IMG/VR virus record: IMGVR_UViG_3300011785_000001
Location: 1 to 64,000 of that record
DNA: 64,000 nucleotides
Reading direction: 5' to 3' (one strand)
Source: an uncultured virus (IMG/VR IMGVR_UViG_3300011785_000001)
Lineage: Duplodnaviria > Heunggongvirae > Uroviricota > Caudoviricetes
A program made the translations under genes and the position numbers. Every line of letters starts with the position of its first letter. The stretch's first letter is position 1. Of this stretch, positions 12,676-42,670 are shown one piece after another. The notes below the pieces were generated by a model. That model was not told the DNA's origin. It saw only the letters and a list, made by a program, of their open reading frames with translations, and ran no database searches.

Positions 12676-12719
12676 TGTAATGTCCTTGTAGAGTAAATAA
12701 GCCCTAAATCGAGAGAAGA

Positions 12720-13715
12720 ACCTTTACTGTGGTGTGAGGTATCTCATCGTTTTCCTACCACATACTTTCTTACCAATGGGACTTAAACTAGGAATAAAAA
12801 CACAACACTCACAACACAGGAGAATCGTACACTGACTTACCTTTATAATCATTATTTAAGGTTTATTTTATTCGATGTGTGTACTATGTGTGAGGTTGCT
12901 AGGAGTAACTGGGACAGCTTCACCGACTGCTGTGCATAACCTCTGTGGTTATTTGCGGTCAGACTTTACGATCTTCTGAATCTTACCTAAACGGTTAACT
13001 TCTAAACTTACCTTACGGCTACTGATCGTCACTTCTGATAGTGTCTTTTATGGAGATTTCTCTCAGTGTATTTGTTTTTAGTCTTTCCTAAATGTCATAC
13101 CTTTACTTGTAATAGCTCCAGAACGTAAAAAAGTACCGTAAGGTATTACTATTCTCTGAACACTTTTCAAAACGATAAAGCTCGTCTTTAATAGCTGTAG
13201 TCGACTTACAGATCAGAACAGGAGATAAACCCTGTGAGTTGATTCCACTAGAACACACTAAGAGTGGGAAGTGTATCTCAACGCTAGAATAAGAAAATAT
13301 AGTCAGTCTTTCCTGAAAGTCAGCTTACCTATTGCGAATCCAATCACGTTATGGAGGGATAGGTCGAAAATGATTCTCATCAATATCGTTTAAAAGCAAC
13401 ACCTCCGTCAGTACGTGACAACCGATAGAGGGTTTTCAAACATTACCTAAATTACAACACGTTGCAACTAAGATTAGTAATGTATTTTTTCAGTCCACAT
13501 TTAAAGTAGCGGAACACTCACAATCCAAGCAGAGAATCAATTCTTGTGCAAGGTTGCTAATGACCTAATGGTAACTGCTGCTTACCCTATGTTATTCCAC
13601 TCTTATCGTGATGCCACACAGTTCGGCTGACACAGACTCAATTTATGTTTAAACTCAGCTTGAGCTAATTAGCGGAGTACCTGATTCAGAACGTCAATTT
13701 GATAAGCCCTGAATC
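12720..13715 (-). ncRNA. Candidate structured non-coding RNA(s), about 1 kb, downstream of the tRNAs
   Basis: No ORF of 60 aa or more; many nested helices readable by eye with G-U pairs on the minus strand; two copies of a UGAC-N2-stem-GAAAGA motif with a compensatory change. Confidence 0.6.
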
Positions 13716-13722
13716 TTGTTCT

Positions 13723-13821
13723 TTAAAATAAGAAAATGTAGTAAGGATAAATAGAGTAAAACAATACTGAGGCAATTAAAACCCAGACGATTACTTTCTC
13801 CCAAGTTGTTAATGTTCTCAT
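13723..13821 (-). CDS. Small hydrophobic peptide (32 aa)
   Basis: MRTLTTWEKVIVWVLIASVLFYSIYPYYIFLF*, one TM-like stretch, AGAGAG upstream. Confidence 0.5.
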   Translation of the reverse strand: MRTLTTWEKVIVWVLIASVLFYSIYPYYIFLF

Positions 13822-13852
13822 GTTATCTCTCTAAATTTATAATCACATTAAT

Positions 13853-13998
13853 CATAACATCACTGGAGAATCGAACTCCAATATTCGTAGTATTTTACAT
13901 GTAGGTGATCAGTCTAACGCCATAGTATCTTCATCTGGAGCTACCATTTTACTTTAACTATGAACTACGCCCATCTGCAACCTGAGCATGATGTTATG
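13853..13998 (-). ncRNA. tRNA-like RNA of about 145 nt with expanded anticodon arm, no encoded CCA
   Basis: CATAACATCA/TGATGTTATG closing stem, D-arm GCTCA..TGGGC, GTAGT/ACTAC stem enclosing about 70 nt, T-arm TGGAG-TTCGATT-CTCCA. Confidence 0.65.
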
Positions 13999-14025
13999 TC
14001 AATATAATTAAATATTTTATTAAAT

Positions 14026-14109
14026 TGGCAGAGGGTAAAGGAATCGAACCCTTATCCGTTAGAATAGCACGTGGTTCAAGCCCGCTTTGTCACCTTGACG
14101 CTACCCTCT
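14026..14109 (-). tRNA. tRNA-Ser (anticodon TGA)
   Basis: AGAGGGT..ACCCTCT-G-CCA acceptor, loop CTTGAAC, long variable arm, GGTTCGATTCC T-arm; one mismatch in the anticodon stem. Confidence 0.85.
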
Positions 14110-14112
14110 GTT

Positions 14113-14199
14113 TGGCGGAAAGCAATGTAATCGAAACATATACCCCTAAGATACACACTGTTTAGCAAACAGGTCTAGCTCCTCGCTAGTTTACTTTCC
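14113..14199 (-). tRNA. tRNA-Ser (anticodon GCT)
   Basis: GGAAAGT..GCTTTCC-G-CCA acceptor, CTGT-TTGCTAA-ACAG anticodon arm, long variable arm, TTCGATT T-loop. Confidence 0.9.
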
Positions 14200-14308
14200 T
14201 TAATTGCCACTTCACGTAGTAGCCACGTTATCCCATGTGGAAGTTAATCTCATGACAGGGAGTAATTGTTTATCTATTGCGACAGTGTTTGTCGTCTTGA
14301 TGTGAGTA

Positions 14309-14337
14309 ACTATACATGAGGTTGATCTCCCCGTCAA
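14309..14337 (-). promoter_or_regulatory. sigma70-type promoter for the tRNA/ncRNA cluster
   Basis: TTGACG-17 nt-TATAGT. Confidence 0.75.
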
Positions 14338-38702: not shown

Positions 38703-40589
38703 ATGAGAGATTTAGAAGCCTTAAGTAAACAGTTAGGGTTTAGTGTTGTAGAACCACCTAGCGTTTTGAACAAAACAGTTCATGTCATAAGAGAAGGGTT
38801 ATACTACTTATCAGATATTGGTTGGAAGGATTTACCTGATAATTGCTACCTTAACAAACAAACATGTGGTTGTGGTGCGACCCATTTAGCCATTACTAAT
38901 GATGTAAACTATGTAATAGCATCACCCTATGTTCGATTGATTAACAACAAGGTTGAGCAACACAGTAATATTATACCAGTGTATTCTGATATTACAGATG
39001 GTGCAATTAAGAAGAAATACCTCAGTCAAAAGTCAGAGGGTTTGCCTATTAAGTTTATGACAACTTATGAGGGTGTTTCCAGACTGTTATCGTTTGAGTG
39101 GTTTAATCCAAAAGACTTTAAACTTATGGTAGATGAAAGTCATGATATAGTGAACTTCGGCTTATTTAGAAAAGAGGCTGTTAGTAATATTCTAACTAAC
39201 TTTTACCTGTTTTACTCTTATGTTTTTGTTACTGCAACACCTAATAAAGAGCACTTCCTACCTAAGCAATTGGTTGAAGTTCCTCACATAGAGTTGAATT
39301 GGAAGAGTGCTAAAACTGTTAAAATAAACATACAGAAAGCAAGTAAGAATGGTAATGACTTTATTGTAGAAAAGTGTCGTCAATTCCTTTATGGTGAGGT
39401 AGATGGCAATGCTCACATATTTTATAATAGTGTCAAAGAGATTGTTTCTGTTATCAAAGCTCTCAAGAAGCTACCAAACTACGATTCAAGTCAAGTGAAA
39501 GTTGTGTGTGCTGATAATGACTACAACAATCGTGCCGTTAAAAAAGAGGGATTAGATTTACTGTCTAAATCACTCCTAAATAGTAGAAAGATTAACTTTT
39601 ACACTAGCTGTGTTTTTGAAGGAGCTGATATTTACGATAAAGAGGGTAAGACATTCATTGTTGTTAATAACAAACGTAACAGTACGAAACTATGTATGAC
39701 TACCCTTGTACCTCAGATTTGTGGGAGGATTCGTGACAGTATTTATAACAGTGAAATCAACATGCTTGTTTGTGGTAATATTGATTGTGTTAAATACTCA
39801 AGAACACAGTGGTTTGAGATTGTTCTAGATAATATGATTGCTGCAAAAAGTGCTGTTGATAGTTTTATGTACACAAAGACTTTACCTAACAGTACGGCAA
39901 TCCTTAACCGTATGCGTAATAACGCCCTCTATGATCCATATTTGTTGGTGGATTACAATACTGGTGATATTTGCTTAAACGAGAGTGCCTTACATGCTGA
40001 GATGCAACGATATGATATTATTCACTCTCAGTATCAAATTCTATCAAAGAATGAGGATGAGTTTAAGAAGGAAGTGAGTAGTCTTTATGAAACCAACATT
40101 GTTGATGATGCTTTTGAAGGTTTGACTGGCTCATTTAAAAGTGTTGTTGATAAGGTTGTTGATTTTAGAGTGCTAATGCAAGAGTACATCACCTCAGTTA
40201 AGGATTTAGACTTGCAGAAATCATCTTTTATTGAAAATAACCACCCTTACTTAAAGTTGTATTATGAAGCTCTTGGTGAAGATAAAATTAAGGCTTTAAA
40301 GTATCGAAAGAAAGACGTTGAAAGAGAGTATTCTGTATTCAAACTGAAAGAGAGTAGATTCTTTGATGTTATCAAAAACATAAAAGTTGTTTCTGGTGAT
40401 ATTATTACTGTTAAAGAAGCCAAAGAGCTTGTTGACACTGCATACAAAACACTAGGAATTAAAACAAAGGTTACAGGAAAGACTTTTGAGGATTACTACA
40501 TTGTTGAGCCTAAGTTGGTTACAATTCAAGGCAAAAGACATAGAAGTTATAAAGTTCTCAGTGTTAAGAATGTGAATTTGCTTTACTAA
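38703..40589 (+). CDS. SF2 helicase-like / replication origin-binding-type protein
   Basis: Degenerate Walker A TCGCGAT, MVDESH, VTATP, IFYNSV, YTSCVFEGADI, QICGRIR. Confidence 0.8.
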   Translation: MRDLEALSKQLGFSVVEPPSVLNKTVHVIREGLYYLSDIGWKDLPDNCYLNKQTCGCGATHLAITNDVNYVIASPYVRLINNKVEQHSNIIPVYSDITDGAIKKKYLSQKSEGLPIKFMTTYEGVSRLLSFEWFNPKDFKLMVDESHDIVNFGLFRKEAVSNILTNFYLFYSYVFVTATPNKEHFLPKQLVEVPHIELNWKSAKTVKINIQKASKNGNDFIVEKCRQFLYGEVDGNAHIFYNSVKEIVSVIKALKKLPNYDSSQVKVVCADNDYNNRAVKKEGLDLLSKSLLNSRKINFYTSCVFEGADIYDKEGKTFIVVNNKRNSTKLCMTTLVPQICGRIRDSIYNSEINMLVCGNIDCVKYSRTQWFEIVLDNMIAAKSAVDSFMYTKTLPNSTAILNRMRNNALYDPYLLVDYNTGDICLNESALHAEMQRYDIIHSQYQILSKNEDEFKKEVSSLYETNIVDDAFEGLTGSFKSVVDKVVDFRVLMQEYITSVKDLDLQKSSFIENNHPYLKLYYEALGEDKIKALKYRKKDVEREYSVFKLKESRFFDVIKNIKVVSGDIITVKEAKELVDTAYKTLGIKTKVTGKTFEDYYIVEPKLVTIQGKRHRSYKVLSVKNVNLLY

Positions 40590-40656: not shown

Positions 40657-41748
40657 ATGTCAAACCTAGTAGAAGATTTAAAGAGTGGTGTTATCAACCT
40701 TGATCACCTTGAGAATACACTACACATCAAAGTTAAAGAGTATGCTGACCGTATTGTATTAAACTACAATCAAATTGAAAGCCCTAAGAGTGATCCTTAT
40801 GTTATGCAATGTCGTGGGATTATTCTAGACAAGCATACATTTGATGTTATGTGTCTACCATTTGATAGATTCTTCAATTTAGATGAAGTTTACAACCACT
40901 CAAATATGATTGATTGGAGTAAAGCTAAATGCTATGAAAAAGTAGATGGTAGTTTGATTAAGATTTATCATGATGGTATGAAATGGTGTATTGCCACTCG
41001 TGGCACAGCCTTTGCTGAGAGTGACGTAAATGGTTTTCCTATTACATTTAAAGAGCTTGTATTGAAGTCTTTAGGTTGCTCTACAGATGAAGACTTCCAA
41101 GAGATCGCTAACGATTGTTTAGATTATGAAAACACATACTTAATGGAAGTCACAGCTAGAGAGAATCGTGTTGTAACAGCTTATGATGGATACAGTTTGT
41201 GGTGGTTAGCTACTCGAAATAAGTACACTGGTGAGTATTTAGATACAACGTCTAGCATCACCAACTTAGGGGCTAAGATTATTAAAAGCTATTCTTTTGG
41301 TAGTGTTTCTGATTGCGTCAAAACTGCCAGTGAATTACCAGACTTACAAGAAGGATATGTTTTGTATCAAGATGGTGTCCCGATGTGTAAGATTAAATCC
41401 CCAGCATATGTTGCTGTACATCACATCAAAGGGGAGGGTTTAAGTCCTAAACGTATTGCAGAACTTGTTTTAACTAACGAACAAGATGAATACTTAAAAT
41501 ACTTCCCAGAAGATCATCAGTATATCAACCCTGTAGTTTGTTCTTTGGAGCATCTTCTTCGTGCTATGCAGTATGTATTAGATGAAGTTTACGAAATTGA
41601 AGATCAAAAGACATTTGCTTTAGAGGTAAAAGATTATCCATTTAGTGCTGTGCTGTTTCAATGGAAAAAGAAAGGTGGTGATGTTGTTGACTTATTCCAC
41701 CAACAACCACTAAACTACAAGGTAAAGTTATTACTTGATTGTGTTTAA
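40657..41748 (+). CDS. rnlA: RNA ligase 1 (T4 RnlA-like)
   Basis: CRGIIL, PFDRFFN, EKVDGSLI adenylation motif, EGYVL, KIKS..Y. Confidence 0.9.
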   Translation: MSNLVEDLKSGVINLDHLENTLHIKVKEYADRIVLNYNQIESPKSDPYVMQCRGIILDKHTFDVMCLPFDRFFNLDEVYNHSNMIDWSKAKCYEKVDGSLIKIYHDGMKWCIATRGTAFAESDVNGFPITFKELVLKSLGCSTDEDFQEIANDCLDYENTYLMEVTARENRVVTAYDGYSLWWLATRNKYTGEYLDTTSSITNLGAKIIKSYSFGSVSDCVKTASELPDLQEGYVLYQDGVPMCKIKSPAYVAVHHIKGEGLSPKRIAELVLTNEQDEYLKYFPEDHQYINPVVCSLEHLLRAMQYVLDEVYEIEDQKTFALEVKDYPFSAVLFQWKKKGGDVVDLFHQQPLNYKVKLLLDCV

Positions 41749-41758
41749 GGAGACTGAT

Positions 41759-42670
41759 TTGAGTAAGTTAAAATTAATTATCACTGTTGGAATCAGTGCT
41801 AGTGGTAAAACAACTTGGGTGGATGATTTTCTTTACGGTAAAGACAGCTCTTCTTGGGTTAATATTAATCGCGATGACATTCGTTTTAATTTTTTGAGTT
41901 ATGCTGATGGGTGGGACACTTATAAATTCACCAAAGCAAAGGAAAATGAAGTTTCCAATGTTGAAATGCAACAGTTTAATGAAGCTGTAGAATATGGTAA
42001 GAATATTATCATATCTAACACAAATTTAAATCCAAAGATTCGCAATAAGTGGGTTAAGCTTGGTGAAGATAATGGCTATGTTGTTGAAATTAAATCATTT
42101 GACATTTCATTAGAAGCAGCTTATAAGCGTGATCAATTTCGAGGTAAGTTTAGTGTTGGGCGAGATGTCTTAAACCGACAATGGAAACAGTGGTTGGAAT
42201 TTAGTGGAAGTTACAAGTATGTACGAAACACTAAGTTACCAAAAGCTATTGTTGTAGATGTTGATGGGACTGTTGCTATTAAAGGAGATAGAAGCCCTTT
42301 TGATTGGAGTAAAGTAGGTCAAGACACCCCAAGAGGGTTTATTACCCTCTTGCTGTTGTCTTATTTGAAACAGTGGGAATCAGATAGTGTTATCTTCTTG
42401 TCTGGTCGAGATAGTGCTTGTCGTCACCAAACTTTAACTTGGTTGTCTAAGCACTTACACATCCCAATCTACAACATTAACTTGTTTATGCGAAAAGAGG
42501 GTGACATGAGGAAAGATAGTATTATTAAGTTGGAGTTATTTAAAGATCACATCGCTAATAATTACGATGTTTTAGCAGTGTTTGATGATCGACCTCAAGT
42601 TGTGGATATGTGGTATGATATTGGAATAGAAAATGTTATTTGTGTAGCAGATCAACGTATCAAGTTCTGA
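41759..42670 (+). CDS. pseT: Polynucleotide 5'-kinase/3'-phosphatase (T4 PseT-like)
   Basis: GISASGKTT, NRDDIR, DVDGT, SGR, FDDRPQVV; probable TTG start after AAGGAG. Confidence 0.92.
   Translation: MSKLKLIITVGISASGKTTWVDDFLYGKDSSSWVNINRDDIRFNFLSYADGWDTYKFTKAKENEVSNVEMQQFNEAVEYGKNIIISNTNLNPKIRNKWVKLGEDNGYVVEIKSFDISLEAAYKRDQFRGKFSVGRDVLNRQWKQWLEFSGSYKYVRNTKLPKAIVVDVDGTVAIKGDRSPFDWSKVGQDTPRGFITLLLLSYLKQWESDSVIFLSGRDSACRHQTLTWLSKHLHIPIYNINLFMRKEGDMRKDSIIKLELFKDHIANNYDVLAVFDDRPQVVDMWYDIGIENVICVADQRIKF

What the first reader, a model, noticed from the sequence alone, without database searches (positions are those of the whole stretch)
13853..13998. tRNA mimic with 10-bp acceptor-like stem and a ~70-nt domain replacing the anticodon loop
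Seen (minus): 10-bp closing stem, D-like arm, GTAGT/ACTAC anticodon-like stem, short variable region and a canonical TTCGATT T-arm. The anticodon loop is replaced by about 70 nt with its own CATAGT/ACTATG helix. There is no CCA, unlike the two neighbouring tRNAs. It is too short for tmRNA or a group I intron and is not permuted like bacterial Y RNAs. Known precedent: T4 species I RNA (~140 nt, function unknown). Inference: a decoy for anticodon nucleases or tRNA-sensing defences, or a substrate for the phage Rnl/PNK pair.
Basis: partly seen in the sequence, partly recalled or inferred. Interest (0 to 1): 0.8.

Follow-up and report, generated by a model that had tools for sequence, protein, structure and literature searches.

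The report
Conserved tRNA-shaped RNA in Acinetobacter phages
The flagged 146 bases are a real tRNA-shaped gene whose anticodon loop carries a conserved 67-base folded domain, and it belongs to an apparently undescribed RNA family found in dozens of Acinetobacter phages, whose job (tRNA look-alike or unusually split tRNA) is still open.

Summary
Window 13853-13998 (minus strand) is the third gene of a phage tRNA operon. It has a 10-bp closing stem, a canonical T-arm and a 67-nt insert exactly between tRNA positions 37 and 38. If the insert is removed in silico, ARAGORN at default settings calls tRNA-Met(CAU).

It is not a recent random insertion. The same element, insert included, occurs in a second IMG/VR phage and in contigs of 4 of 4 sequencing runs laid. 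A distant version lies in 66 GenBank Acinetobacter phage records, and none of the 34 listed near-full-length matches is annotated as RNA. A covariance model built only from six of those distant copies finds the window element over its full length (E 1.8e-8) and hits no true tRNA searched.

The shared fold is not a cloverleaf. It has a 10-bp closing stem, a 3-bp D-like hairpin, an 11-bp rod topped by two hairpins, and a T-arm; 15 of 40 pair positions change on both sides yet stay paired.

No spliced form was seen. Rnl1 ligase is absent from 5 of 5 other carrier genomes, and RtcB and the splicing endonuclease from all 5 carrier genomes searched. My best reading is a non-decoding tRNA mimic (0.48); an intron-split tRNA remains possible (0.22).

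The parts
13853..13998 (-). The tRNA-shaped element (146 nt). ARAGORN with intron mode and a relaxed threshold reads 13855-13995 as tRNA-Met(cat) with a 67-nt intron at 37/38.
13989..13998 (-). Closing stem, 5' strand (CAUAACAUCA). It pairs with 13853-13862.
   Evidence: 10/10 paired in 8 of 8 sequences, and 6 of 10 positions changed on both sides between the two types
13853..13862 (-). Closing stem, 3' strand (UGAUGUUAUG). No CCA follows.
13976..13988 (-). D-like mini hairpin: UGC/GCA, 3 bp, with loop UCAGGUU holding the conserved AGGU.
   Evidence: 3/3 paired in 8 of 8; the X3 contig has C>A with G>U at the paired positions, and the X1 contigs have only G>U, which gives a mismatch
13964..13974 (-). 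Rod, 5' strand.
   Evidence: 9/11 paired here, 9-10/11 in the other 7; 4 of 11 positions changed on both sides
13881..13891 (-). Rod, 3' strand (ACUACGAAUAU). It includes what would be the variable loop of a tRNA.
13960..13962 (-). Anticodon-like triplet CAU (CAC in the Obolenskvirus type). It is base-paired in helix A.
13892..13958 (-). The 67-nt insert, lying exactly between tRNA positions 37 and 38.
   Evidence: 66 nt in L007 and in 6 of 6 fetched Obolenskvirus-type copies
13921..13924 (-). 3' strand of helix A (UAUG). It pairs with CAUA at 13959-13962.
   Evidence: 4/4 paired in 8 of 8; U-A here against C-G in the other type
13897..13920 (-). Second hairpin of the insert: 7 bp, with a loop holding the palindrome UGAUCA.
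   Evidence: 7/7 paired in 8 of 8; 2 positions changed on both sides
13864..13880 (-). T-arm UGGAG-UUCGAUU-CUCCA.
13840..13852 (-). Conserved 3' tail (AUUAAUGUGAUUA) that travels with the element. Homology of the two RNA-library contigs stops at 13839/13840.
   Evidence: tables 7, 8
13999..14025 (-). AT-rich spacer between tRNA-Ser(UGA) and the element. It is conserved in L007 and also in L004, which lacks the element.
14026..14109 (-). tRNA-Ser(tga), called only at the relaxed threshold. This copy has a private G.A mismatch in the anticodon stem; relatives have C there.
   Evidence: 14072 T>G
14113..14199 (-). tRNA-Ser(gct), called only at ARAGORN -ps80.
14309..14337 (-). Sigma-70-like promoter TTGACG-17-TATAGT ahead of a conserved leader and the tRNA operon.
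   Evidence: leader conserved in L004 and L007
13723..13821 (-). 32-codon ORF (membrane-like peptide) directly downstream. Its start region GAUAACAUG repeats the 5' strand of the closing stem.
40657..42670 (+). Rnl1-type RNA ligase (40657-41748) and Pnkp (41735-42670). This is an accessory island private to this genome and not part of the family.

Best explanation
The element is a member of a conserved, apparently undescribed family of ~145-nt tRNA-shaped RNAs of Acinetobacter phages. It most likely works unspliced, as a non-decoding tRNA look-alike.

Shown: it is built on a tRNA(CAU) body, but the fold shared by the family is not a cloverleaf. It consists of:
- a 10-bp closing stem;
- a 3-bp D-like hairpin with an AGGU loop;
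- a canonical T-arm;
- an 11-bp rod in place of the 5-bp anticodon stem. The rod absorbs the D-stem 3' strand and the variable loop. It ends in a three-way junction, where the anticodon triplet is locked in a helix beside a second hairpin with a palindromic UGAUCA loop.

Inferred: it is transcribed with the neighbouring tRNAs from the promoter at 14337-14309. The acceptor/T-arm/elbow platform lets host tRNA enzymes (RNase P, T-loop modifiers, possibly the CCA-adding enzyme) recognise, cut out and stabilise it. The stable RNA then occupies a host tRNA-binding factor, for example a tRNA-directed defence or processing protein, while the rod-and-hairpin domain gives it specificity.

Shown: it is an accessory, swappable cassette. 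Close relatives lack it, or carry other cargo in the same slot.
For: 1. Homology over the whole length, insert included. Model R1 was built only from 6 Obolenskvirus-type copies. It hits the window at 13855-13996 (45.5 bits, E 1.8e-8) and the G002 copy (49.1 bits, E 2.3e-9), both covering model positions 1-145. In 319,539 bases there is no other hit at E<=10 except BS46, which is a training member. That stretch holds the tRNAs of CP14, T4 and this window.

2. Structure-preserving change across 8 sequences:
- closing stem 10/10 paired, with 6 positions changed on both sides;
- rod 9-10/11, with 4;
- helix A 4/4, with 1;
- insert hairpin 7/7, with 2;
- D-like hairpin 3/3, with 1;
- T-stem 4-5/5, with 1.
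On the model-fitted alignment, 98.8% of cells are paired and 19 of 43 pairs change on both sides, against 0-4 when the partners are slid. The fitting and two registers inflate that figure.

3. The cloverleaf D-stem is not kept: 4/4 paired in the window, 1/4 in the other 7. In contigs of X15, X1 and X3 the GG>UU change breaks that D-stem and completes the rod.

4. After in-silico excision, the Obolenskvirus type is never a default-grade tRNA: tRNA-Val(cac) at -ps90 in 4 of 6 and at -ps80 in 2 of 6.

5. In the Obolenskvirus type, leader and trailer pair beyond the closing stem (AACUUAG/CUAAGUU). That leaves no free acceptor end.

6. Contigs from two RNA libraries hold the insert unspliced, and none of the 4 runs shows a joint that skips it.

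7. No splicing enzymes are shared. Rnl1 is found in 0 of 5 other carriers, and RtcB and the tRNA-intron endonuclease in 0 of 5 carriers, with the controls ringing.

8. Turnover is typical of accessory or arms-race loci. L004, Ab3-TPeters, CP14 and AP22 lack the element. Five different cargoes sit in the same frame.
Against: - The exons of the window type join into a tRNA that ARAGORN accepts at default settings, in 2 of 2 copies. The same settings call only 2 genes in the whole 95-kb genome.
- The insert sits exactly at 37/38, the canonical site of protein-spliced introns. Excision would leave textbook anticodon loops (UUCAUAA, UUCACAA) with U33 and A37.
- The anticodon differs between the types (CAU against CAC) with a matching change in the insert, as in the anticodon-intron pairing of true pre-tRNAs.
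- An alternative bulge-helix fold (3-nt bulge plus 5 bp next to the 3' junction) is 4-5/5 paired in all 8 sequences and has one both-sided change.
- In G002 the element would be the only CAU tRNA.
- There is no direct evidence of a stable RNA, of its ends, or of any binding partner.
- The RNA-library contigs are shallow (depth 2.4 and 2.9) and may be DNA carry-over. Contigs also cannot show rare spliced forms.
- The sequences fall into only two clades, so the many both-sided changes reflect few independent events.
Confidence: 0.48

Rival explanations
1. It is an intron-split tRNA gene. The 66-67-nt insert is a true intron of a kind not described in bacteria. It is cut out at 37/38 by an unknown host or phage nuclease that recognises the rod, the 3-nt bulge and the anticodon-intron helix. 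The halves are then sealed, here perhaps by Pnkp/Rnl1 and elsewhere by a host ligase. The product is tRNA-Met/Ile2(CAU) in this phage and tRNA-Val(CAC) in Obolenskvirus phages.
For: - ARAGORN at default settings calls tRNA-Met(cat) after excision in 2 of 2 window-type copies.
- The position is exactly 37/38.
- The insert length is conserved: 67 nt, 66 nt, and 66 nt in 6 of 6 fetched Obolenskvirus-type copies.
- The anticodon triplet covaries with the insert.
- The bulge-helix alternative is 4-5/5 paired. In L007 it is the MFE fold and it carries a both-sided change at one pair: A-U in the window, G-C in L007.
- The G at element position 103 completes that helix in L007 and in 4 of 4 runs.
- G002 has no other CAU tRNA.
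- There is a precedent: short unexplained introns in Lak megaphage tRNAs (PMC6784885, passages read).
- This genome has Rnl1 and Pnkp.
Against: - No spliced joint was seen in 4 of 4 runs; contigs in RNA libraries are unspliced (weak evidence).
- Rnl1 is absent from 5 of 5 other carriers. RtcB and the splicing endonuclease are absent from 5 of 5 carriers.
- The outer rod pairs, which a cloverleaf would have to break, are kept by both-sided changes. The D-stem is not kept.
- The Obolenskvirus type passes ARAGORN only at relaxed thresholds and has a C.C or U.C mismatch in its T-stem.
- In the Obolenskvirus type the acceptor end is buried in a longer duplex.
- L007 has G, not A, at position 37.
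- No second 3-nt bulge or flanking helix of a true BHB motif is present (and the sequence itself).
Confidence: 0.22
2. It acts in cis on its own transcript. The tRNA-shaped fold is a processing signal (RNase P/Z here; RNase III on the long framed duplex in Obolenskvirus phages). The signal separates and stabilises the neighbouring RNAs or sets the expression of the small downstream ORF, and the excised piece has no role of its own.
For: - It is the last unit of the tRNA operon and lies directly before a 32-codon ORF.
- The start region of that ORF (GAUAACAUG) repeats the closing stem's 5' strand. It can therefore pair with the element's 3' strand instead (by inspection).
- In the Obolenskvirus type the element tops a ~17-bp interrupted duplex. 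It lies at the 3' end of a non-coding transcript, with a terminator 18 nt downstream in C62.
- Different cargoes share the same frame.
Against: - A mere cutting signal would not need a conserved 66-67-nt two-hairpin domain with both-sided changes.
- It would also not need a palindromic loop conserved between types.
- In the X15 and X16 contigs the element has a different downstream neighbour, so it is not tied to the small ORF.
Confidence: 0.17
3. It is a decaying tRNA pseudogene with no function, carried along by linkage.
For: - It is dispensable in close relatives. L004, with 99% terminase identity, lost it by a deletion between GA[C/G]AUAACAU repeats.
- This copy has private mismatches: C.A in the bulge-helix alternative, two G.A in the rod, and a G.A in the neighbouring tRNA-Ser.
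- The fold z-scores are weak: -0.97, -1.6 and -1.64.
Against: - It is kept in two very different phage groups: ~45-kb Obolenskvirus and ~94-97-kb phages. It occurs in 66 GenBank records plus metagenomes.
- 15 of 40 pair positions changed on both sides and stayed paired.
- The insert is no more variable than the exons within the window type: 6 variable sites in 67 nt against 10 in 79 nt.
Confidence: 0.07

Closest known systems
'Enigmatic' short introns in tRNA genes of Lak megaphages (Devoto et al. 2019, PMC6784885; passages read)
   Same: Both are short, non-group-I inserts in the anticodon loop of a phage tRNA gene. In both, the insert sequence is highly conserved wherever the insert is present, close relatives differ by presence or absence, and no removal mechanism is known.
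   Different: The Lak cases are in ~540-kb Prevotella phages with many tRNAs, and one insert itself looks like a tRNA. Here the host group is Acinetobacter and the genomes are 45-97 kb. The comparative data favour a rod fold that is incompatible with a cloverleaf. No sequence comparison with the Lak inserts was made, because none was fetched.
Phage T4 species 1 RNA (rnaC, 139 nt; NC_000866 annotation)
   Same: It is of similar size and is the last unit of a phage tRNA cluster. It has a T-arm (CCGGG-UUCGAAU-CCCGG) closed by an acceptor-like stem and no known function ('function unknown' is recalled).
   Different: In T4 the extra ~65-nt hairpin sits at the D-arm position, and a 10-bp anticodon-like hairpin remains. 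Model R1 gives no hit on the T4 tRNA region at E<=10. Its fold is strongly stable (z -4.57), unlike this element (z -0.97).
YrlA-type bacterial and phage Y RNAs (Chen et al. 2014, PMC4201824; abstract and section 6 read)
   Same: Both are non-coding RNAs with a tRNA-like T-arm, D-loop and elbow. YrlA is a substrate of tRNA enzymes and carries a long helix where the anticodon arm would be.
   Different: YrlA is circularly permuted: its ends lie in the Ro-binding stem and its acceptor stem is capped by a loop. It carries a GNCGAA motif and is encoded next to Ro60. Here the ends are at the acceptor-like stem. No Rfam match was found, and no Ro60 (TROVE) gene appeared among the 106 ORFs scanned. 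I did not see the motif by eye.
Archaeal/eukaryal pre-tRNA introns (bulge-helix-bulge, position 37/38)
   Same: The insert is at 37/38, the anticodon is paired to the insert, and a 3-nt bulge can form at the 3' junction.
   Different: There is no second bulge and no 4-bp spacing. No splicing endonuclease or RtcB was found in 5 of 5 carrier phages. The hosts are bacteria, which as a rule lack that endonuclease (established knowledge).

Membership tests
Canonical tRNA (ARAGORN / Rfam RF00005) | Detected as a tRNA by standard tools on the genomic sequence | tested here: not met
   ARAGORN at default settings finds 0 genes in the window. Rfam at gathering thresholds finds 0. No tRNA-clan hit on 13853-13998 at E<=10.
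Canonical tRNA (ARAGORN / Rfam RF00005) | The exons alone form a cloverleaf with a 7-nt anticodon loop | tested here: met
   After in-silico removal of the 67- or 66-nt insert, ARAGORN at default settings calls tRNA-Met(cat) in 2 of 2 window-type copies. Obolenskvirus-type copies pass only at -ps90 (4 of 6) or -ps80 (2 of 6).
Canonical tRNA (ARAGORN / Rfam RF00005) | D-stem and free variable loop conserved among homologues | tested here: not met
   The D-stem is 4/4 paired in the window and 1/4 in the other 7. The would-be variable loop pairs in the 11-bp rod (variants).
Group I intron in a tRNA anticodon loop | Ribozyme core of roughly 200 nt or more, matching Rfam Intron_gpI; 5' exon ends in U and the intron ends in G | tested here: not met
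   The insert is 67 nt. No Rfam match. The 5' exon ends in A and the insert ends in U. The size and end rules are recalled knowledge.
BHB (protein-spliced) tRNA intron | Insert at the canonical position 37/38 | tested here: met
   ARAGORN places the intron at 37-38. The analogous place holds in 6 of 6 Obolenskvirus-type copies.
BHB (protein-spliced) tRNA intron | Two 3-nt bulges separated by a 4-bp helix | tested here: not met
   Only one 3-nt bulge plus a 5-bp helix can form at the 3' junction. No helix flanks the 5' junction (by inspection).
BHB (protein-spliced) tRNA intron | Splicing endonuclease and ligase available | tested here: not met
   PF01974 is found in 0 of 5 carrier phages (control: 4 archaea ring) and RtcB in 0 of 5 (control: 10 ring). 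Rfam-independent check for Rnl1: present only in G000. Host genomes were not searched.
YrlA / Y RNA | Match to the Rfam Y RNA models; permuted tRNA-like domain; Ro60 gene nearby | tested here: not met
   No Rfam hit. The ends lie at the acceptor-like stem. No TROVE/Ro60 domain in the 72 + 34 ORFs scanned.
tmRNA | tRNA-Ala-like domain with G3.U70 plus a tag reading frame; found by ARAGORN | tested here: not met
   ARAGORN finds no tmRNA. The third pair is C-G here and A-U in the Obolenskvirus type. The 12-codon frame in the insert is not kept in the other type, because of a 1-nt indel (by inspection).
T4 species 1 RNA (rnaC) | Sequence or structure homology to T4 rnaC | tested here: not met
   Model R1 finds nothing in the T4 tRNA region (L013) at E<=10. 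The domain order differs. The reverse search, an rnaC model against the window, was not done.
Acinetobacter-phage ~145-nt tRNA-shaped RNA (family defined here) | Full-length match to model R1: closing stem, D-like hairpin, 11-bp rod, helix A, second hairpin and T-arm | tested here: met
   45.5 bits, E 1.8e-8, model positions 1-145. All helices are paired.

The most novel reading that the evidence does not exclude
The 66-67-nt insert is a genuine intron of a new, non-ribozyme class in bacterial viruses. A conserved switch would drive it. In the 'locked' fold the anticodon is paired in helix A beside the UGAUCA hairpin. In the bulge-helix fold the two junctions are presented to an unknown nuclease. 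Exon sealing is then done by whatever RNA-repair ligase the cell or phage has. That would make production of a phage tRNA conditional on an RNA-cleavage and repair event, for example one triggered by a host anticodon-nuclease defence.
Probability: 0.12. Interest if true: 0.9.

Novelty: new variant of a known kind. Interest (0 to 1): 0.68.

Why it matters
tRNA look-alikes and phage tRNAs are now known to take part in the contest between phages and bacterial tRNA-targeting defences. Very few non-decoding tRNA mimics are known in phages, and none is understood.

This finding turns a single odd sequence into a family. The fold is supported by covariation. The family is present in many cultured, therapy-relevant Acinetobacter baumannii phages, where none of the 34 listed near-full-length matches is annotated as an RNA: 28 have no annotation and 6 are read as tiny 'hypothetical proteins'. 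Because cultured carriers exist, and natural variants with other cargo in the same slot exist too, the question can be tested directly at the bench: is this a spliced tRNA or a mimic, and what does it bind?

If it is spliced, it would be the first tractable case of the unexplained short tRNA introns of phages. There is also a practical point: genome annotations of these phages that report 'no tRNA genes' miss this RNA.

Tried and rejected
- **Standard detectors.** ARAGORN at default settings and Rfam (gathering thresholds, and E<=10) on the window find nothing for the element. The snoRNA-type Rfam hits at E 2-8 are chance.
- **ARAGORN intron mode alone is not evidence.** At -ps90 it gives 8 calls in the 95-kb genome, of which I take 4 (in otherwise coding stretches) for false, and 52 calls at -ps85.
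- **Exact-pattern scans.** Four IMG/VR patterns from the element returned only one other contig. A leader pattern returned two contigs. JGI metagenome contigs gave 0 for two patterns and GTDB genome contigs gave 0.
- **Terminase-anchored locus search.** It gave only 3 loci.
- **Ancestry of the exons.** No specific relative was found among 17 phage tRNAs: best identity 0.64 against a background mean of 0.59.
- **Group I, tmRNA and Y RNA readings.** All rejected; see the membership tests.
- **Rnl1/Pnkp link.** Rejected as a family feature.
- **The 628-aa ORF next to Rnl1.** No Pfam, PHROG, NCBIfam or PDB-sequence match, so it stays unexplained.
- **Sequencing runs.** Only contigs, not raw reads, were on offer. 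They cannot show RNA ends, strand or rare spliced forms. Parts of the stretch without cover in X15 and X16 say nothing.
- **Small reading frame in the insert (MVAPDEDTMALD).** Rejected, because the frame is not kept in the other type.
- **Extended pairing outside the closing stem in the window type.** None convincing was found by eye.
- **Papers.** I found nothing on this RNA in Acinetobacter phages, no phage BHB-type intron, and nothing beyond Devoto 2019 for short phage tRNA introns. T4 species 1 papers are not in the searchable library.
Full report
**1. Setting**

The window is the first 64 kb of a 95,415-base IMG/VR virus record. Its nearest GenBank relatives are all Acinetobacter phages; the best is Ab3-TPeters.

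On the minus strand, a sigma-70-like promoter (TTGACG-17-TATAGT, 14337-14309) precedes a ~100-nt leader that is conserved in two related contigs. Three tandem units follow:
- 14113-14199, tRNA-Ser(gct);
- 14026-14109, tRNA-Ser(tga);
- the flagged element, after a 27-nt AT-rich spacer.

ARAGORN calls both tRNA-Ser genes only at relaxed thresholds. Downstream lie a 32-codon ORF, about 1 kb of non-coding DNA, and then the thioredoxin-like, cell-wall hydrolase, terminase and portal genes.

**2. The observation**

- the perfect 10-bp stem;
- GUAGU/ACUAC;
- CAUAGU/ACUAUG;
- the T-arm UGGAG-UUCGAUU-CUCCA;
- no CCA, while both neighbours encode one.

The phage's canonical tRNA-Met at 66478-66552 also lacks an encoded CCA, so that point carries little weight.

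On its own the copy is not statistically remarkable:
- 10-nt inverted repeats at this spacing occur 10 times in the window, against 8.2 expected;
- the fold z-score is -0.97;
- standard detectors see nothing.

With intron mode, ARAGORN reads 13855-13995 as tRNA-Met(cat) with a 67-nt insert exactly between positions 37 and 38. That mode is unspecific, with 4 likely false calls in 95 kb at the same threshold. However, when the insert is removed in silico, ARAGORN at default stringency calls tRNA-Met(cat) in both known copies. The same default settings call only two genes in the whole genome.

**3. Close relatives**

A second IMG/VR phage (G002, locus L007) carries the element behind a tRNA-Thr. 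It differs at 11 of 146 columns.

Contigs of 4 of 4 public runs laid hold the element with the insert. One of them is a 93-kb phage contig. In these contigs the upstream tRNAs are swapped: joints at 14028 to 14201 or 14205, with 73-76 other letters between. In X15 and X16 the downstream homology stops at 13839/13840. The element plus a 13-nt tail therefore behaves as a self-contained cassette.

A phage with 99% terminase identity (L004) lacks it. The junctions carry the repeat GA[C/G]ATAACAT. Ab3-TPeters, which also lacks the element, still has the 'aaatttagag' segment that L004 has lost, so L004 is a secondary deletion.

No intron-less allele was found anywhere.

**4. A distant family**

A weak BLAST hit (54 nt, E = 2) led to Obolenskvirus phage fThrA. 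There a 145-nt element has the same layout but a completely different closing stem, GAAGUGAAUA/UGUUCACUUC.

Using it as a query finds 66 Acinetobacter phage records, 37 of them with at least 80% coverage. Of the 34 listed rows with at least 89% coverage:
- 28 have no annotation;
- 6 carry tiny 'hypothetical protein' CDSs;
- none is annotated as an RNA.

One carrier is the 94-kb phage BS46. There the element lies beside the DUF3310 and DNA polymerase genes, which is the slot where this genome has tRNA-Arg and tRNA-Met.

Rfam has no match to these loci at E<=1.

A covariance model built only from six Obolenskvirus-type copies finds:
- the window element, 45.5 bits, E 1.8e-8;
- the G002 copy, 49.1 bits, E 2.3e-9.

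Both hits cover model positions 1-145. Across 319,539 bases there is no other hit at E<=10 apart from BS46, a training member. That search space includes 8 tRNAs of CP14, the T4 tRNA cluster with rnaC and rnaD, and this window's own tRNAs.

There is one copy per genome in fThrA and BS46, and none in Ab3-TPeters, CP14 or AP22.

**5. The shared fold**

I used explicit coordinates for 8 sequences: 2 of the window type and 6 of the Obolenskvirus type.

| Helix | Paired | Positions changed on both sides |
|---|---|---|
| Closing stem | 10/10 in all | 6 of 10 |
| D-like hairpin | 3/3 | 1 |
| Rod | 9-10/11 | 4 |
| Helix A (holds the anticodon triplet) | 4/4 | 1 (U-A against C-G, i.e. CAU against CAC) |
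| Second insert hairpin | 7/7 | 2 |
| T-stem | 4-5/5 | 1 |

The run contigs agree. The GG>UU change in X15, X1 and X3 breaks that D-stem and completes the rod with A114 and A115. X3 has a both-sided change in the D-like hairpin (C13-G21 to A13-U21), although the X1 contigs have the one-sided mismatch.

On the model-fitted alignment, 98.8% of cells pair and 19 of 43 pairs change on both sides, against 0-4 when the partners are slid. This figure is inflated, because the alignment is fitted to the model and the two window-type rows were placed in different registers.

All this rests on two clades, so the number of independent events is small.

**6. An alternative fold**

In L007 the minimum-energy fold puts a 3-nt bulge (the last three insert bases) next to the anticodon stem. 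A 5-bp helix between tRNA positions 33-37 and the 3' end of the insert follows it.

This helix is 4-5/5 paired in all 8 sequences and has one both-sided change, at a single pair that is A-U in the window and G-C in L007. The G that completes it is present in L007 and in 4 of 4 runs, while this window has A.

It competes with helix A and the second hairpin. It resembles half of a bulge-helix-bulge motif, but there is no second bulge.

**7. Splicing machinery and RNA evidence**

This genome has an Rnl1-type ligase and Pnkp. The island that holds them, together with an unexplained 628-aa ORF, is replaced by other DNA in G001 and G002 and is absent from Ab3-TPeters.

| Family searched | Result | Control |
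|---|---|---|
| Rnl1 | 0 of 5 other carriers | rings in G000 |
| RtcB | 0 of 5 carriers | 10 control genomes ring |
| tRNA-intron endonuclease | 0 of 5 carriers | 4 archaea ring |

Two RNA-library contigs (depth 2.4 and 2.9) contain the insert unspliced, and no run shows a joint that skips it. This is weak evidence. Contigs drop rare forms, and DNA may be present in such libraries.

**8. Context in Obolenskvirus-like phages**

The element sits in a 'frame' made of:
- an upstream hairpin;
- AACUUAGA;
- GAAGUGAAU, then the cargo, then GUUCACUUC;
- AUCUAAGUUUA.

The outer parts of the frame also pair, giving a ~17-bp interrupted duplex. The same frame holds quite different cargo in AP22, WCHABP12, BUCT628, AB1 and Mithridates. 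In Mithridates it lies inside a tRNA cluster and occurs twice. In C62 a terminator follows 18 nt after the element.

The locus is therefore a swappable non-coding cassette site, and the acceptor end of this cargo is buried in the duplex.

**9. Reading**

The family-wide rod, the loss of the D-stem, the buried ends, the marginal tRNA quality of the Obolenskvirus type and the lack of any shared splicing enzyme all point one way. I favour a stable, non-decoding tRNA look-alike that uses the acceptor/T-arm/elbow platform to be handled by tRNA enzymes and to engage a host tRNA-binding factor (0.48). That last step is inference; no partner is known.

The intron reading stays alive (0.22). The exact 37/38 site, the default-grade tRNA after excision, the anticodon-insert covariation and the bulge-helix alternative all support it.

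A purely cis-acting processing or regulatory role gets 0.17, and a functionless relic 0.07.

**10. Comparison and novelty**

The closest published parallels are:
- the unexplained short introns of Lak megaphage tRNAs (PMC6784885; passages read);
- T4 species 1 RNA (annotation and fold), which is an analogue and not a detectable homologue;
- YrlA Y RNAs (PMC4201824; abstract and section 6 read), which have a different topology and context.

I found no description of this family in Rfam 15. The paper searches also found none. Subscription journals are outside that library, and I did not open the supplements of the Lak paper.

I rate it a new variant of a known kind (phage tRNA-like RNA or enigmatic tRNA insert), with interest 0.68.

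Noticed in passing
window 14026-14109 and 14113-14199 (-): Both neighbouring tRNA-Ser genes fall below ARAGORN's default threshold. The UGA one has a G.A mismatch in its anticodon stem that relatives lack (14072 T>G in X15 and X1; Ab3-TPeters has C). This genome also has private mismatches in the flagged element. The cause could be mild decay of the cluster in this lineage or assembly errors.
   Followed up: partly
window 14200-14308 (-); L004 2640-2750; L007 1210-1290: A ~70-nt leader core (aacaattactccctgtcatgag...gaagtggca) sits between the promoter and the first tRNA. It is nearly identical in three phages whose downstream cargo differs: two tRNA-Ser genes here, a tRNA-Thr in L007, and only a terminator-like hairpin in L004. 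It may be a conserved non-coding RNA or a processing signal.
   Followed up: no
window 38703-40589 (+): A 628-aa ORF lies directly upstream of Rnl1 and Pnkp in the same accessory island. It has no Pfam, PHROG, NCBIfam or PDB-sequence match, and the island is replaced by ~2.5-2.7 kb of other DNA in G001 and G002.
   Followed up: partly
window about 12676-13720 (-): About 1 kb between the 32-codon ORF and the thioredoxin-like gene has no ORF over 51 codons. It holds blocks conserved in L004 and Ab3-TPeters, including a conserved hairpin GAUUCAG...CUGAAUC just after the small ORF. In the X15 contig one of these blocks directly follows the tRNA-shaped element.
   Followed up: no
window 13821-13862 (-): The start region of the small ORF (GAUAACAUG) repeats the closing stem's 5' strand, so the element's 3' strand (AUGUUAU) could pair with it instead and hide the start codon. 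The same repeat is the deletion junction in L004.
   Followed up: no
L043 (Acinetobacter phage AB1) 507-614; L042 (BUCT628) about 109-125: The Obolenskvirus non-coding locus holds further tRNA-shaped pieces. One is a 108-nt unit in AB1 with closing stem AAGUUAAU/AUUAACUU, a D-like arm, the T-arm AUAGG-UUCGAAU-CCUAU and extra bases in the anticodon region (ARAGORN -i -ps95). Another is a perfect T-arm-like hairpin in BUCT628.
   Followed up: partly
L036 (YMC-13-01-C62) about 150-250; L032 (BS46) about 1295-1420: Upstream of the Obolenskvirus-type element is another conserved non-coding block (uugaucgaaucugugggcgaca ... gcaacuauucgcacguugccgaucaa). Its ends are complementary, which suggests a second structured RNA in the same transcript.
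   Followed up: no
L040 (Acinetobacter phage Mithridates) 385-470 and 600-710: Two tandem 'framed' modules (UUAGAGA-GUGAAU...cargo...AUUCAC-UCUACUAAAGUUU) lie between annotated tRNA-Tyr and tRNA-Ile. The long interrupted duplexes look like RNase III-type processing sites with variable apical cargo.
   Followed up: no
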